The translations under genes were made by a program, and so were the position numbers. From positions 1 to 64,000 of IMG/VR virus record IMGVR_UViG_3300006749_000012: a DNA stretch of 64,000 nt; one strand, 5' to 3'. Under the pieces are notes generated by a model. That model saw nothing but the letters and a program-made list of their open reading frames with translations, was not told where the DNA came from and did no database searches. This document shows positions 24,136-30,156 of the stretch, in pieces. Position 1 is the first letter of the stretch, and every line of letters starts with the position of its first letter. This DNA comes from a virus.

Positions 24136-27100
24136 ATGCGAGAAGGTCCACTTGATACCTTAGATAGGCATCGCTTAACCTTCGTAGATTCACTATTCGA
24201 CGGTATAGGGAAAGCAGATGCCGGTGCTGATTTTTATTTGTCTGCAATAAGTGCAGAAAGAAAGGGGTATAAATTAAGCGTAGATGATGAAACTCTTATC
24301 AAAATGTTTGGCAGTATAATTGCTAAACAGGACGAGCAAGAAGTTACTGGTTCGCAAGTATACGACTTAGGTAACGAGGTAGAAGATTCAACTCTTAGAG
24401 AAACTGGAGTTTCACAGTTTGATGTGGCTACTGATTTAGGTAGTAGAGGAGATGCTTTGTCAGATAATCCTTCTTACAAAACAGACCGAGTTATGCATGC
24501 TGAGCCGGGAAGTGCTGGTAATTTAGCAGGTCATAAGTGGAATATGGAAGACGGAGATTTGGTTGAAGACCCGCATGCTACAAGTAATTACATTGGAGAT
24601 GTGCAAGAAAGGTTTGTTGACCATTTAGGTGACTTTTTTCTTGCTGATAATCCGATAGATGAATCGCAGTCTCAAATAGACCATCACAAAGAATCCTCTT
24701 GGGAGGACTGGACTAACAGTAATGAGCATGACTTTTTACTAAATGAACATCATTTCGGTAGGTTAGGGACAGTGGGTAACGATTACCTTACCAATCACAG
24801 TCTTTATCAACATCATTACAATCAATGGGAAAGAGATAACGCAGACAGGATTGATGAGAGAAAACAAATACTATCTCAGCAAGGTATGGACGATAATGAA
24901 ATCGAACACGAGATGCAAAAAATTCACATGGACCAAGTAAAAAGAGATTGGCAAGAAAATTTAGGATTCTTAGATTTCATGCTTGGATTAGAATGGCTTA
25001 CTCCTGAAGAAAGAAAGTCCTTTTATGACCATGTTGAGGAATACGGTGCATCTGATATTACTCAACCTTTCAAATTAAACAGGCACAATATGGCGGGAAA
25101 TCCTGATTTCATACCGAGAGCGAAAAGAAACTTTGCTCAAAGGTTTTCAGGACTCTACGACTCTTGGACTAGGGGCGCAGCCTACCCCGGACAGGGTTTG
25201 AGAAAAGAACCAATTGGATTGCCCGATGATGTTCGGGTAGTAGAAAGAGCGCACAATACTCTTGCGTTAGATGAACATAGAAGTCCCGGTAAGACTGGCT
25301 CTGCTATGGAAAGGGCCATTGCCTACATGAATGAAATGATGAGAGATTATTACTTTGACCAAATGCCTAACCAAACGCCTCCTCAATATAGTGCTAGCGA
25401 TATACCTACATTTACAGAATTAGAAGATGGAAGTTTCGATGTCGATACAGTTCCTAGATTTAAAGCAGATAAAAAAAGCAAATTCGGTGGTAGATACAGT
25501 CATGTTTCTTATGATGCGTTAAAACTCATGCTTGGTATAGATGAAAATAATCAAATCTTTGAAGATAACTCTCATCCGGTATGGGGCTCATACTGGAAAA
25601 AGGATAACGCCCCTTTCTCTCAAGAAGAAGTGGACAAGATAATGGATAGTAGGGGCAAGGCTGCTAAGCAACTAGCGGCCTCCGGTAGAATGAGTAAAAA
25701 CCATGGCTACATGCATTATGGTCATCACATAAATGGTGACAAATACGATTACTCAGATGATGATAATACGCTTGCTACTTATTGGCACAGTATGTATACT
25801 GGAGGAGGATTAGGTAAAATGCCTAATGATTTGTTTGATTTGATACATCATCATAGCGTATTGTTTGAGCCGGACTACGCTTCTGACGAAGGGGCACAGA
25901 CTGAAGAAAAAACTGCTAGGCAACTGCAAGCAGAATTAGATGATGAGAAGGACTTTTTATCCGCTGCACAAATAGATGAGAGAGAGGAGCAGATACGAAG
26001 TAAAATTCGTGAAGAAATGTTGAGGGAGGAATACGGGGAAGAAGAAACTTCGACTGATGACATTCCTCTGAAAAGAAGAATGGATGGGGCACAAGAGCAT
26101 AGTCTATTTTTCTCAAGAACTGGTAATAGCATAATGCCTAGGGTTAGATTAGATAGTCAGTTAGAAAGAGTGGACTCAGGGTTATCTTCTCTATTAGGTC
26201 CTTTTGGTCAACCTGAACTAGGTTTGTTCAATATGATTGCTGGGCAAGGTAAAATGGACCAAGTTAGTTTTAGAGGTGACATTCAAGATTCTTTGAAAAA
26301 TATGGGACCTTCTAATGTTAATTTTAGCAGAAGTCAGAAGGGTTCATCAGGTGAAAATCTCGATATGGCTAGACACAGCGGAACGGTTGACAGCGCTCAT
26401 AAAAACAAAGTATTTGGTGAATACAACAGTGCTACCCAGTCAGGTAATTACGATGAGGAGGCTAGACAAGCAGCCCATGCTGAGATGATTGGTCGAGATT
26501 CAATAGGGTTGAGTATCCATAATCCCTTCGTTAGCGGTGCGGGTAGATTCGATGAAATGGGTCAGCGGAACAGAAATGCTCACCATCACAAACTTACATC
26601 TTATCTTTTGGGATTTGCTAGACCGCCTATGTCTCCTTTGAAACAACCGCTAACTAGAGAAATGAGTAGGCGACCTGAGCACCTTGAACATCACCCCTTA
26701 GCGAACCCTGAAGATATGGAAAGTATCAAGAGAAGGCAACTAACTTCTTCTAAATTTGATATTGAGCAGGAATTATCTAATTTAAAAGAAGAATACGAAA
26801 CTAATTTGAGTCGCACAGATGACGAAGATAAACGTCAAGAACTCAAAGAAGAATATGAGAGAAGAAAAAATAGACTAGAATCCGATGGTCAATTCGTATC
26901 AGAAGACGCTGTGAGAGAAGGAATTGTGCAACAACCACCCGGATTACTTTACAGTAGATTGAGTGCGAGTGAACCTATTACAGAAGAAGAAGAACGATTT
27001 ATCACTTTGTCAGATTTATCTGCTACTTTACAAAGTAGGTTATTTGAATTACAAGACCCTGAAGGCTTTGCTAGAGACAGCCAAAGTAGGGGTATCAAGC

Positions 27101-30100: not shown

Positions 30101-30156
30101 CCACAGAGGGTGGAGAGTTAGAAATAACAGAAGACAAGGCTATACTCCATACTTGA
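24136..30156 (+). CDS. ~2000-aa acidic protein with C-terminal degenerate ATP-dependent DNA ligase-like (adenylation + OB) domain
   Basis: SHMPEGER (motif I), FNADVI (III), YIFDVI (IIIa), PLDDRIKIL, ENILLRD..Y..G...KWVMLKP (IV/V) from ~28700. Confidence 0.75.
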   Translation: MREGPLDTLDRHRLTFVDSLFDGIGKADAGADFYLSAISAERKGYKLSVDDETLIKMFGSIIAKQDEQEVTGSQVYDLGNEVEDSTLRETGVSQFDVATDLGSRGDALSDNPSYKTDRVMHAEPGSAGNLAGHKWNMEDGDLVEDPHATSNYIGDVQERFVDHLGDFFLADNPIDESQSQIDHHKESSWEDWTNSNEHDFLLNEHHFGRLGTVGNDYLTNHSLYQHHYNQWERDNADRIDERKQILSQQGMDDNEIEHEMQKIHMDQVKRDWQENLGFLDFMLGLEWLTPEERKSFYDHVEEYGASDITQPFKLNRHNMAGNPDFIPRAKRNFAQRFSGLYDSWTRGAAYPGQGLRKEPIGLPDDVRVVERAHNTLALDEHRSPGKTGSAMERAIAYMNEMMRDYYFDQMPNQTPPQYSASDIPTFTELEDGSFDVDTVPRFKADKKSKFGGRYSHVSYDALKLMLGIDENNQIFEDNSHPVWGSYWKKDNAPFSQEEVDKIMDSRGKAAKQLAASGRMSKNHGYMHYGHHINGDKYDYSDDDNTLATYWHSMYTGGGLGKMPNDLFDLIHHHSVLFEPDYASDEGAQTEEKTARQLQAELDDEKDFLSAAQIDEREEQIRSKIREEMLREEYGEEETSTDDIPLKRRMDGAQEHSLFFSRTGNSIMPRVRLDSQLERVDSGLSSLLGPFGQPELGLFNMIAGQGKMDQVSFRGDIQDSLKNMGPSNVNFSRSQKGSSGENLDMARHSGTVDSAHKNKVFGEYNSATQSGNYDEEARQAAHAEMIGRDSIGLSIHNPFVSGAGRFDEMGQRNRNAHHHKLTSYLLGFARPPMSPLKQPLTREMSRRPEHLEHHPLANPEDMESIKRRQLTSSKFDIEQELSNLKEEYETNLSRTDDEDKRQELKEEYERRKNRLESDGQFVSEDAVREGIVQQPPGLLYSRLSASEPITEEEERFITLSDLSATLQSRLFELQDPEGFARDSQSRGIKQVADELGQTSSLQRQTSEEREKDFTELGSMLGLDMSDPDAVQNKLKELTGQLSELEPALNRLGGGLGMVGMRRLPKHQDAYVSRFRDKLHADTLAIRDAAIHLVENEIDPNILSEILNPNLPIETVAANVRMLARMANEYLHKAPHQDHGIHTLGHGEHNEEGDSAQQALGQIRTDLNNHDNSLTPSDNLSLIQASQSDSPQEKQALLSQLADKLGIDKDDPRQIDTLARLADEHMLDAIKQNGTGYSPPIMTIRQYYQQQYPDFNIEEALTSLGRFRSREKGLELFNNLKRLESSLSQSPEKYGVKLHTANNSDDREIGPEKTLRRKGKIGDNEYTVKPTKAGGKSSVKNESQVFRAKQMLDSILVGMPEVEEIDTSVTRRGMGRVPVDRFGPNSHSVHSLYDSAGFRHEQGDLFRPNFNFKINPRGKVKLELVDPMNNPQKLLQPLESFWEAALSDKSKLFPPEWLEMLRNPEHAIARESLNNPFRFAAQRKPNSIDATRNQDAHSTTKSEIGLADLTNPDIIRKELGSKVPLLQPMHRIFNISDLEHLRGFTGDWIVSHMPEGERGFVEKKDDEVSSKSFDLSDDDKDNFKEVTDEDFNADVIKLEDGYYIFDVIEFAGKEVHDVPLDDRIKILRGGMEGVENVHLPSASDTRLSDDIGLKSVVKDLQKEHENILLRDAKSVYMAGEMRHPKWVMLKPGRDVVLRVLEKRGSGPYTYRLGTGPITQDDKIGDRAVQSDGETYMDLGAAFNSPDKYNVGDHVRVNVANVSKVESAEDDTIYTLTGSEIEGEAEGEGLVSQETLGMLAKSDNIQWLCEVHRAKSGIRVVMPQGDVVYKATESLGAWTVHSPLASNNYLIRLSESQRVYWSPIAGALLKADLEVKEEVHESKGDGKPLIPPKKIQDAQWWRKKKKQKILVKGLTLIDKFMKSGVGAVGQSSTGAMGLGIGYATPIESPMGPTNLHDEKTMPDYDNRKRPGEDSPIEPDTEEKDEDKRMTVPTEGGELEITEDKAILHT

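What the first reader, a model, noticed from the sequence alone, without database searches (positions are those of the whole stretch)
24136..30156. Catalytically degenerate DNA-ligase domain inside a ~2000-aa head-region protein
Seen: ligase motifs are recognisable in order, but the adenylated Lys of motif I (KxDGxR) is replaced (MPEGER, 28786), motif IV EGxxxK reads ENILLR, and motif V WxKxK reads WVMLK. The domain is flanked by K-type sites (TTK|S, IRK|E, LAK|S, LLK|A, FMK|S) and sits between portal and protease. Inference: a pseudo-ligase reused as a DNA-end clamp or nick shield, or as a structural core protein, released from a large polyprotein. An automatic 'DNA ligase' label would be misleading.
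Basis: partly seen in the sequence, partly recalled or inferred. Interest (0 to 1): 0.7.

Follow-up and report, generated by a model that had tools for sequence, protein, structure and literature searches.

The report
Dead DNA-ligase module, magrovirus head protein
A giant protein encoded between the portal and capsid-protease genes of an uncultured ocean archaeal virus (a magrovirus) ends in a true DNA-ligase fold that has lost the residues needed to join DNA but is still strongly conserved. The "structural-module DNA ligase" annotated in these viruses is therefore most likely a non-enzymatic part in this lineage.

Summary
ORF 24127/24136-30156 (2009/2006 aa) lies between portal and prohead protease in a 79.9-kb magrovirus-like record. 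Residues ~1520-1804 fold as an ATP-dependent DNA-ligase NTase+OB pair (AF2 pLDDT 88.6; Z 17-18 to Lig1, Lig3 and archaeal ligases).

Motif I Lys is Met. Motif III Glu is Ile, motif IV Lys is Arg, and the first motif V Lys is Met. In 101-102 representative homologues of the same clade no motif I Lys occurs (W/M/Y/L/I/F/H/Q instead).

Sister viruses carry a canonical ligase (KYDGxR, EGVVIKD, KWIKWKK; PF01068 ~100 bits) in the same slot, directly upstream of the protease. The dead domain is the best conserved part of the protein (dN/dS ~0.05 against ~0.3 for the N-terminus).

Philosof et al. 2017 already reported a "DNA ligase embedded in the structural module" but did not mention inactivation. 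This scan has reached the same conclusion on other magrovirus DNA.

The proposed role (a packaged, protease-trimmed, non-catalytic binding module) is inferred, not shown. Only one of the five proposed K-sites (LLK|A, K1870|A1871) has independent support, and loss of the OB domain in a sub-lineage weakens the "DNA clamp" idea.

The parts
24127..30156 (+). Whole ORF, 2009 aa from GTG 24127. The likely true start is ATG 24136, giving 2006 aa. Stop codon at 30154-30156.
   Evidence: The homologue consensus begins MxExPxD.
24454..26046 (+). Residues ~110-640: a confidently predicted, mostly alpha-helical N-terminal body with no match in the PDB. It holds the conserved islands GFLDFMLGLEWLTPEER, RAKRNFAQRF and YWHSMYTGGGLGKMP.
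   Evidence: AF2 of residues 1-1200 gave pLDDT mostly above 90 here. Foldseek best E is 2. VIA-wide found only generic helical bundles at Z 9.2 or less. The islands are shared with the ~1100-aa intermediate-clade proteins.
26047..28683 (+). Residues ~641-1519: a fast-evolving, indel-rich, helix-rich middle region and linker.
   Evidence: dN is 0.6-0.8 against 0.12-0.20 in the ligase-like part.
28684..29205 (+). Residues 1520-1693: ligase nucleotidyltransferase (adenylation) domain, catalytically stripped.
   Evidence: VIA Z 17.1, rmsd 2.4 A over 163 aa to Lig3. PF01068 partial match. The family-specific block PM[HY]RIF..LRGFxG is shared with canonical relatives.
28786..28803 (+). Motif I remnant MPEGER (canonical KxDGxR). 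The Lys nucleophile is replaced by Met1554. Gly1557 and Arg1559 are kept.
28909..28917 (+). Motif III remnant D-V-I (canonical D-x-E). Glu is replaced by Ile1597. The ~25-aa hairpin that follows in canonical relatives is deleted.
28933..28950 (+). Motif IIIa YYIFDV, kept.
29122..29142 (+). Motif IV remnant ENILLRD (canonical EGxxxKD). Gly is replaced by Asn and Lys by Arg1671. Arg is present in 101/101 clade members.
29182..29199 (+). Motif V remnant KWVMLK (canonical KWxKxK). The first Lys is replaced by Met1689. The second position is Lys here but varies across the clade.
29206..29496 (+). Residues ~1694-1790: OB-fold domain of the ligase pair. It is retained here and deleted in a sub-lineage.
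   Evidence: The NTase+OB alignment covers model residues 20-304. 16 of 98 representatives are ~100 aa shorter between motif V and the tail motif.
29497..29736 (+). Residues 1791-1870: a helix (ETLGMLAK) plus a small beta domain and terminal helices, ending in ...AGALLK.
   Evidence: AF2 secondary structure; conservation.
29728..29739 (+). LLKA: the best-supported candidate prohead-protease site (K1870|A1871).
   Evidence: LLK[AS] occurs 7 times in the window's proteins against 0.83 +/- 0.86 in shuffles. The same LLKAD pentapeptide lies just before the conserved MCP core, and that site is conserved in relatives. K/R at this place is conserved across the clade.
29737..30153 (+). Residues 1871-2009: conserved C-terminal tail with a basic patch (KKKKQK), a Gly-rich stretch, the SPMGPT motif (29968-29985), MPDYD and a terminal hairpin-like ELEITEDKAILHT.
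   Evidence: [SA]PxGPT is shared by the dead and intermediate clades and absent from canonical ligases. dN/dS ~0.1.
21156..22970 (+). Portal protein gene (context).
   Evidence: PF04860, phrog_18178
30188..31606 (+). S78 prohead protease with a ~295-aa C-terminal extension, directly downstream (context).
   Evidence: PF04586. This adjacency holds in 79/79 close relatives and 70/70 canonical or intermediate loci.
31561..32748 (+). HK97-fold major capsid protein (context). It carries SELLK|ADAPLL near its N-terminus.

Best explanation
The C-terminal quarter of this 2009-aa head-module protein is a pseudo-ligase. It is an ATP-dependent DNA-ligase NTase+OB pair that descends from an intact ligase encoded at the same genome position (directly upstream of the prohead protease) in sister magroviruses.

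Shown: in this lineage the lysine nucleophile, the motif III Glu, the motif IV Lys and the motif V lysines were replaced. Most replacements are hydrophobic residues; motif IV Lys became Arg. The motif III-IIIa hairpin was deleted. Lysyl-AMP formation and nick sealing by the known mechanism are therefore not possible.

Shown: the module is nevertheless the slowest-evolving part of the protein, so it does something non-catalytic that selection maintains.

Inferred: the protein is made with the head proteins and taken into the procapsid together with the adjacent protease. It is trimmed after LLK (K1870|A1871) as the capsid protein probably is. The stripped ligase core plus the beta domain and tail then serves as a binding module in the head. 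The partner would be the packaged DNA, or the portal or capsid interior.
For: Fold:
- AF2 pLDDT 88.6.
- Foldseek top 50 are all DNA ligases, E down to 1.6e-11.
- VIA Z 17-18.

Loss of catalytic residues, fixed in the clade:
- motif I Lys: 0 of 102
- motif III Glu: 0 of 102 (I/V instead)
- motif IV Lys to Arg: 101 of 101
- motif V K+2: 0 of 102

Descent from an active enzyme in the same slot:
- Canonical relatives have KYDGMR, ILDAEL, EGVVIKD and KWIKWKK, with PF01068 at ~100 bits.
- They share the family-specific PM[HY]RIF..LRGFxG lead and the OB domain.
- They lie directly upstream of the S78 protease.
- A tree rooted on them puts all 101 Lys-less representatives in one clade.

Selection:
- Identity to homologues is 0.53-0.83 in residues 1501-2000 against 0.1-0.5 before that.
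- Against the nearest relative, dN/dS is 0.045 for the domain and 0.31 for the N-terminus. Elsewhere dN is 4-5 times lower in the domain.

Head association:
- Invariant synteny: 79/79 loci with the protease downstream and 34/34 with the portal upstream.
- The LLK[AS] motif is enriched in the window's proteins (7 against 0.83).
- LLKAD is shared with the conserved pre-core site of the MCP.

Literature: this gene is known only as the 'ATP-dependent DNA ligase embedded in the structural module' (PMC5434244; PMC7318539).
Against: - No virion proteomics exist for any magrovirus, since they are uncultured. Packaging and cleavage are inferences from gene order and a sequence motif.
- Four of the five proposed K-sites are no more than chance.
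- DNA binding is untested. The ligase DNA contacts (motif Ia Arg, the motif V lysines, the III-IIIa hairpin) are lost. The domain is acidic, with median net charge -6 (NTase) and -3 (OB). At least 16 of 98 representatives have dropped the OB domain.
- New clade-specific invariant polar residues (H1531, R1629, E1681, H1684, R1727) could mark a new ligand site rather than a passive binding module.
- I could not read the model's coordinates, so I could not see what fills the former pocket.
Confidence: 0.6

Rival explanations
1. Neofunctionalised pocket. The former nucleotide pocket was rebuilt into a new ligand-binding or catalytic site that uses residues which became invariant only in this clade (H1531, R1629, R1671, E1681, H1684, R1727). 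On this reading the module is still an enzyme or a specific sensor of something other than ATP.
For: These residues are invariant or nearly so (98-100%) across ~100 clade representatives but differ in canonical relatives (Y, F/M/L, K, T/R/K, N, variable). Selection is very strong. Two His and one Glu would fit a metal site.
Against: Their proximity in 3D was not tested because coordinates were not readable. The other replaced catalytic positions are simply hydrophobic (W/M/Y, I/V, L/M), which looks like pocket filling. There is no similarity to any other enzyme family.
Confidence: 0.13
2. Late-expressed assembly or packaging factor that does not stay in the virion. For example, a non-sealing DNA nick or branch sensor working with terminase and the HNH nuclease, or a chaperone or scaffold-like helper removed by the protease.
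For: It lies in the head/packaging operon next to terminase, the HNH endonuclease (19885-21204), portal and protease. In phage T4, ligase and endonuclease VII are needed for packaging (own knowledge). A cleavage motif is present.
Against: The protease ORF already carries a ~295-aa extension that can act as scaffold. A 2000-aa fast-evolving N-terminus is more typical of packaged or ejected proteins (own knowledge). Nothing here separates this reading from the best explanation except virion proteomics.
Confidence: 0.2
3. Still an active ligase or nucleotidyltransferase that uses another nucleophile, such as a neighbouring or distant Lys.
For: Motif I Gly and Arg, motif III Asp, motif IIIa and motif IV Asp are kept. 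Sixteen relatives have Lys one residue before the lost one.
Against: The neighbouring residue is A/S/K/H/V/T, so it is not conserved. Every Lys conserved in the clade (K1518, K1564, K1686) is also present in canonical relatives alongside the motif I Lys. The Glu and the three lysines that bind the ribose and phosphates are all gone.
Confidence: 0.04
4. A decaying relic with no function of its own, carried along by the rest of the protein.
For: The catalytic residues are lost. The residue replacing the Lys varies.
Against: It is the most conserved part of the protein, with dN/dS ~0.05 and 72 columns conserved at 85% or more over ~100 diverse representatives.
Confidence: 0.02

Closest known systems
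Magrovirus 'structural-module' ATP-dependent DNA ligase (Philosof et al. 2017, Curr Biol, PMC5434244; also named in PMC7318539)
   Same: It is the same gene slot, directly upstream of the prohead protease in the head module of magroviruses. It belongs to the same sequence family, sharing the PM[HY]RIF..LRGFxG lead, the NTase and OB domains and the TLxLLAK helix.
   Different: The published description treats it as a ligase. In this lineage all nucleotidyl-transfer residues are replaced and the III-IIIa hairpin is deleted. A ~1500-aa helical N-terminus and an [SA]PxGPT tail are attached. Canonical members (~830-910 aa) keep every motif and lack that N-terminus and tail.
Cellular and viral ATP-dependent DNA ligases (human Lig1/Lig3/Lig4, Thermococcus/Pyrococcus ligases, LigD ligase domain; PF01068)
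   Same: Two-domain NTase+OB fold, with Z 17-18 and NTase rmsd 2.4 A. The motif order I-III-IIIa-IV-V is recognisable.
   Different: There is no Lys nucleophile, no motif III Glu and no motif IV or V lysines. There is no N-terminal DNA-binding domain of the Lig1 type. The Pfam score is at or below the gathering cut-off.
Packaged or ejected minor head proteins encoded next to the portal (SPP1 gp7 / Mu gpF family with C-terminal effector domains; T4 internal proteins with protease-removed targeting peptides)
   Same: The gene lies between the portal and the protease/scaffold. It is a large multi-domain protein with an enzyme-derived C-terminal module and a candidate protease site. The comparison itself rests on my own knowledge of those systems.
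   Different: No sequence or fold match to MuF/gp7 or to HVTV-1 gp113-115 was found. Packaging has not been shown.

Membership tests
ATP-dependent DNA ligase (covalent nucleotidyltransferase superfamily, PF01068) | Nucleotidyltransferase (adenylation) domain fold | tested here: met
   AF2 pLDDT 88.6. VIA Z 17.1, rmsd 2.4 A over 163 aa to Lig3. The Foldseek top 50 are all DNA ligases.
ATP-dependent DNA ligase (covalent nucleotidyltransferase superfamily, PF01068) | C-terminal OB-fold domain | tested here: met
   Alignments to Lig1 and archaeal ligases span model residues 20-304, Z 17-18. A sub-lineage lacks this domain.
ATP-dependent DNA ligase (covalent nucleotidyltransferase superfamily, PF01068) | Motif I KxDGxR with the adenylated Lys | tested here: not met
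   The motif reads MPEGER, with Met1554 at the Lys column. 0 of 102 clade representatives have Lys there, against 5 of 5 canonical relatives.
ATP-dependent DNA ligase (covalent nucleotidyltransferase superfamily, PF01068) | Motif III Glu, motif IV EGxxxK Lys and motif V xKxK lysines (nucleotide and phosphate contacts) | tested here: not met
   I1597, N1667/R1671 and M1689 in this protein. Clade-wide these columns are I/V, R (101/101) and L/M/V/I.
ATP-dependent DNA ligase (covalent nucleotidyltransferase superfamily, PF01068) | Pfam gathering score (26.2 bits) | tested here: inconclusive
   22.4 bits on the whole protein, 25.1 on the C-terminal fragment, and 26.1 (27.8 with neighbours) in the six-frame genome search. 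Only model positions 111-204 are matched.
ATP-dependent DNA ligase (covalent nucleotidyltransferase superfamily, PF01068) | Self-adenylylation and nick sealing | not testable with these tools
   This needs a biochemical assay.
Magrovirus structural-module ligase family (Philosof 2017) | Gene directly upstream of the S78 prohead protease in the head module, downstream of the portal | tested here: met
   True in the window. 79/79 and 34/34 in close relatives. 70/70 in canonical and intermediate lineages.
Magrovirus structural-module ligase family (Philosof 2017) | Sequence homology to the family's canonical members beyond generic ligase motifs | tested here: met
   tblastn E 1e-23 to the L031 ligase. 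phmmer E 1e-19 to 1e-24 to P0117, P0118, P0120, P0124 and P0127. The pre-motif-I block and the OB domain are shared.
Prohead-protease-processed, capsid-packaged head proteins | Recognisable protease site shared with the capsid protein | tested here: inconclusive
   LLK|A at 1868-1871 matches the MCP's SELLK|ADAPLL and an enriched LLK[AS] motif. The other four proposed sites are at the chance level. No cleavage data exist.
Prohead-protease-processed, capsid-packaged head proteins | Presence in virions | not testable with these tools
   These viruses are uncultured and no proteome was at hand.
Mu gpF / SPP1 gp7 minor head protein family | MuF-type domain | tested here: inconclusive
   No Pfam or PHROG hit on any part of the protein. 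No fold match for residues 1-1200. Absence of a hit does not exclude the family.

The most novel reading that the evidence does not exclude
The ligase core was not merely silenced but rebuilt. The residues that became invariant only in this clade (H1531, R1629, R1671, E1681, H1684, R1727) would form a new site in the old nucleotide pocket. The module, delivered from the capsid with the genome, would use that site to recognise or cap a DNA end or nick, or another ligand. That would shield the incoming linear, terminally redundant genome from the archaeal host's end-resection machinery. This would be a virion-borne pseudo-ligase effector with no described counterpart.
Probability: 0.12. Interest if true: 0.8.

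Novelty: new variant of a known kind. Interest (0 to 1): 0.55.

Why it matters
Magroviruses are among the most abundant archaeal viruses of the surface ocean. Their "second ligase in the structural module" has been cited as a notable, unexplained feature since 2017.

This work shows three things:
- In a large lineage (over 100 clusters at 50% identity; proteins of 1.7-2.5 kaa) that gene cannot be a ligase.
- It is nevertheless under very strong constraint.
- Sister viruses keep intact ligase motifs in the same slot.

That corrects a propagating annotation. It also gives a clean natural series from enzyme through intermediates to pseudoenzyme. The vague question of why a ligase sits in a head module becomes a testable one: what does a ligase fold do in a capsid operon when it no longer ligates? 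It also flags a large, confidently predicted helical N-terminal body with no structural relative.

Tried and rejected
Searches that found nothing:
- PHROGs: no family for the protein.
- tblastn of the C-terminal 626 aa against 50,697 phage records: no match.
- tblastn of the whole protein against the HVTV-1 head module (gp113-115): nothing below E 2.5.
- Pfam on four sub-fragments at E up to 1: only PF01068 and a weak capping-enzyme hit.
- blastp of five segments of the protein against all ORFs of the genome: no paralogue or shared tail.
- Foldseek (best E 2) and VIA-wide (Z 9.2 or less, generic three-helix bundles) on the model of residues 1-1200: no usable match. A 1200-residue model is a poor query, so this does not establish a new fold.

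Tools that failed or were closed:
A stored homologue gave no usable hit.
- The first MAFFT run on all full-length homologues timed out.

Ideas tested and not supported:
- K[SAE] sites as a pattern are not enriched: 29 against 26.3 +/- 4.3.
- Net charge does not separate the dead and canonical clades. Both are acidic.
- The 484-aa ORF next to RFC, said by another note to be a second dead ligase, has no Pfam hit and no PDB sequence hit. I could not confirm that it is ligase-like at all.

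
Full report
WHAT THE WINDOW IS

The window is the first 64 kb of a 79,956-bp linear IMG/VR virus record. The major capsid protein (31561-32748) is 32-34% identical to those of the haloarchaeal siphoviruses HVTV-1, HCTV-1 and HCTV-5, and to nothing else among 50,697 phage records apart from three metagenomic methanogen-virus records.

[quoted passage not shown] Relatives of the protein under study come from Tara and other marine metagenomes, on contigs of 85-110 kb.

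This is the profile of a magrovirus, a virus of marine group II archaea. The thermosome points to group A of Philosof et al. 2017 (PMC5434244).

The head module reads:
- terminase (18377-19867)
- a protein with an HNH endonuclease-like domain (19885-21204)
- portal (21156-22970)
- three small ORFs
- the 2009-aa ORF (24127-30156)
- S78 prohead protease with a long C-terminal extension (30188-31606)
- MCP

CHECK OF THE OBSERVATION

In numbering from the GTG at 24127:
- MPEGER starts at residue 1554 (nt 28786).
- ENILLR starts at residue 1666.
- WVMLK starts at residue 1687.
- The five K-sites are K1502|S, K1518|E, K1801|S, K1870|A and K1922|S.

The homologues' consensus N-terminus supports the ATG at 24136 as the start.

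The ligase similarity is real:
- Pfam PF01068 matches motifs IIIa-V at 22-25 bits, just under the 26.2-bit cut-off. It scores 26.1 bits in the six-frame genome search.
- phmmer aligns YIFDVIEF...ENILLRD...HPKW with FVFDCIYF...EGLVLKD...W of human ligase 3.
- An AlphaFold2 model of residues 1501-1868, built on 33 sequences, has mean pLDDT 88.6 and pTM 0.83.
- Its 50 best Foldseek matches in the PDB are all ATP-dependent DNA ligases, with E down to 1.6e-11.
- VIA-align gives Z 17.1 with rmsd 2.4 A over 163 residues for the nucleotidyltransferase domain alone. It gives Z 17-18 over 250-280 residues for NTase plus OB domain, covering model residues 20-304, which are protein residues 1520-1804.

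IS THE LOSS FIXED?

A full HMMER scan of 1.84 billion representatives found 173 relatives. Most are proteins of 1.7-2.5 kaa with the domain at the same C-terminal place. I aligned the 114 relatives that cover the NTase domain. Three groups appear.

(a) Canonical group. Five representatives of ~700-910 aa have QEKYDGMR, ILDAEL, FD, EGVVIKD and NPKWIKWKK, and score ~100 bits on PF01068. IMG/VR holds over 500 matching stretches of this type.

(b) Intermediate group. Eight representatives, the complete ones ~1100-1160 aa (several are fragments). The motif I Lys is kept in five, but the motif III Glu, the motif IV Lys (now Arg) and the motif V lysines are already lost.

(c) The clade of this protein. 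It has 101-102 representatives:
- No motif I Lys at all (W 44, M 23, Y 11, L, I, F, H, Q).
- Motif III Glu replaced by I/V.
- Motif IV Lys replaced by Arg in 101/101.
- Motif V K+2 replaced by L/M/V/I, and K+4 variable.
- The ~25-residue hairpin between motifs III and IIIa deleted.

Structural residues are kept: Gly and Arg of motif I, Asp of motifs III, IIIa and IV, and Trp of motif V.

A FastTree of the NTase columns was built with the motif I column left out and rooted on the canonical group. It puts all Lys-less sequences of group (c) in one clade. It needs at least four Lys/non-Lys changes overall, the others lying inside the intermediate group. The rooting is an assumption, because no cellular outgroup was included.

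No lysine is conserved in group (c) that is not also present in the canonical group next to the true nucleophile. I therefore see no candidate substitute nucleophile.

SAME GENE, SAME SLOT

In a 90.9-kb sister virus (L031) the canonical ligase ORF (833 aa) ends 39 nt before the S78 protease gene, with portal upstream and MCP downstream. In L086 the intermediate-type 1114-aa ORF holds the same place.

- The protease follows directly in 79 of 79 close relatives of the window, and the portal lies upstream in 34 of 34.
- The protease follows directly in 70 of 70 canonical or intermediate loci.
- The canonical proteins share with this one a family-specific block before motif I (PM[HY]RIF(D/N)xxDLxxLRGF(T/S)G), the OB domain and the TLxLLAK helix.

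They are true relatives, not just generic ligases.

[quoted passage not shown]. It is also the "ATP-dependent DNA ligase gene" next to the prohead protease of group A contig_156409 in PMC7318539. None of the papers I could search mentions loss of the catalytic residues.

NOT A RELIC

The ligase-like region and the tail are by far the best conserved part of the protein. Identity of the query to 24 relatives is 0.53-0.83 in residues 1501-1975 and mostly 0.1-0.35 before that.

| Comparison | N-terminus | Ligase-like domain | Tail |
|---|---|---|---|
| dN/dS against the nearest relative (L091) | 0.31 | 0.045 | 0 |
| dN in 48 more distant pairs (dS saturated) | 0.6-0.8 | 0.12-0.20 | 0.14-0.26 |

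Seventy-two columns of the domain are conserved at 85% or more across about 100 representatives. Several are invariant only in this clade: H1531 (Tyr in canonical relatives), R1629, G1653, R1671, E1681, H1684 and R1727.

THE REST OF THE PROTEIN

Residues 1-1200 were modelled on 40 homologues (pLDDT 74.6, pTM 0.68). The model is largely alpha-helical. Confidence is above 90 for most of residues ~110-640, and later helical segments are less certain. Neither Foldseek (best E 2) nor VIA-wide (Z 9.2 or less, generic helical bundles) finds a relative. A 1200-residue query is weak for this purpose.

A profile of this region hits the N-termini of the intermediate-clade proteins (E 1e-16 to 1e-23) through the islands GfLDYlLGLEWLxPExR, GRxKRNxxxRF and HWxxPfxxxGGxGK. 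It hits nothing in canonical-lineage loci or in HVTV-1.

The tail (residues 1871-2009) has a basic patch, a Gly-rich stretch, [SA]PxGPT, MPDYD and a terminal hairpin-like motif. It is shared by the dead and intermediate clades and is absent from canonical ligases.

The architecture "helical N-terminus + stripped ligase + tail" therefore arose once and then expanded.

THE K-SITES

As a class they are not more than chance. K[SAE] occurs 29 times against 26.3 +/- 4.3 in shuffles.

One site stands out. LLK[AS] occurs seven times in the window's proteins against 0.83 +/- 0.86 in shuffles, with a maximum of 4 in 500 shuffles. Most copies lie in similar contexts:
- AWSLLKA
- AYELLKA
- AFQLLKS
- GSELLKADAPLL in the MCP
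- AGALLKADLEV at the end of the ligase-like module

The MCP copy sits just before the conserved capsid core. It is conserved in relatives as DLLKAD in L086, SLLKQ in L031 and MSKAD in HVTV-1, where it follows a ~100-aa extension. HK97 capsid protein is cut after a Lys by the homologous protease (my own knowledge). Cleavage at K1870|A1871 is therefore plausible, and K/R at that place is conserved in the clade. It remains unproven.

MECHANISM

Shown: the module cannot carry out lysyl-AMP chemistry, it descends from a ligase with intact motifs in the same slot, and it is under strong constraint.

Inferred: it is a non-catalytic binding module of a head-associated protein.

I rank "packaged and trimmed head protein" above "assembly factor that leaves". 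Three observations favour it: the invariant coupling to the protease gene, the shared LLK motif, and the size and fast evolution of the N-terminus.

The specific "DNA-end clamp or nick shield" idea is weakened by several points:
- The ligase DNA contacts are lost (motif Ia Arg, motif V lysines, the III-IIIa hairpin).
- The domains are acidic.
- At least 16 of 98 representatives, and the intermediate clade, have deleted the OB domain while keeping the NTase remnant, the beta domain, LLK and the tail.

The conserved function therefore lies in the NTase remnant and what follows it, not in an NTase-OB clamp. The clade-specific invariant His, Glu and Arg residues leave room for a rebuilt ligand site, which is the novel case.

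EARLIER NOTES OF THIS SCAN

The same feature was noted and followed up on several other magrovirus genomes, with the same verdict. I reached my reading before seeing those notes and tested it here independently.

One lead from them, a ligase fused to the protease, was not found in 70 loci. Another note calls a second ORF beyond the window (next to RFC) a dead ligase. I found no Pfam or PDB sequence match for it and leave it open.

VERDICT

This is a new variant of a known kind: the magrovirus structural-module ligase, here a conserved pseudoenzyme fused to a giant helical protein. Interest is moderate to high for virologists and for those who study pseudoenzymes.

Noticed in passing
window 3092-4165, 4162-4515, 5826-6569, 13493-14860, 14860-16782, 23727-24119, 43-2058, 31561-32748: Many proteins of the window carry a similar short motif, often near the N-terminus: (D/N)xA[WYF]xxL[LM]K followed by A/S/E/K. 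Examples are FANAWSLLKA, AAWRVLKE, SAWYELLKK, NDAWSTLMKE, NDQAYELLKA and MDIAFQLLKS. LLK[AS] alone occurs 7 times against 0.83 expected. It looks like a shared protease-site or capsid-targeting tag.
   Followed up: partly
window 23351-23722 and 30188-31606: The C-terminus of the 123-aa ORF (VPTSNADFHKMEWADIHALAEEA) resembles the C-terminus of the protease/scaffold ORF (IPSTQELGNMSWDDVHSLAGSV). This may be a shared capsid-binding tail.
   Followed up: no
L003:15914-17368 (-), i.e. genome 77913-79367, beyond the window: A 484-aa ORF lies next to the RFC-like clamp loader. Another note calls it a second ligase without KxDG. It has no Pfam hit even at E 10 and no PDB sequence hit. PF01068 matches nowhere else in the 80-kb record, so no intact ligase was found in the part of the genome that is held (77% complete).
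   Followed up: partly
window 2210-3055: An HMGL-like (HMG-CoA lyase family, PF00682, 67.6 bits) gene sits in a magrovirus. Philosof et al. 2017 reported no auxiliary metabolic genes in magroviruses.
   Followed up: no
window 44865-60575: A single 5236-aa ORF lies in the tail region, after two ~670-840-aa ORFs. It was not analysed.
   Followed up: no
window 24454-26046 (residues ~110-640 of the 2009-aa protein): A large helical region is predicted with pLDDT above 90 and has no Foldseek match in the PDB (best E 2). It should be folded and searched alone before it is called a new fold.
   Followed up: partly
homologues P0088-P0110 and intermediate-clade loci L085-L090: A sub-lineage of the dead-ligase proteins and the ~1100-aa intermediate proteins have deleted the OB domain. 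They keep the NTase remnant, the beta domain, the LLK site and the [SA]PxGPT tail.
   Followed up: partly
window 19885-21204: A 439-aa ORF with an HNH endonuclease-like domain (phrog_5046, residues 291-396) lies between terminase and portal, as in HVTV-1. This fits the nuclease 'inserted' in magrovirus structural modules.
   Followed up: no
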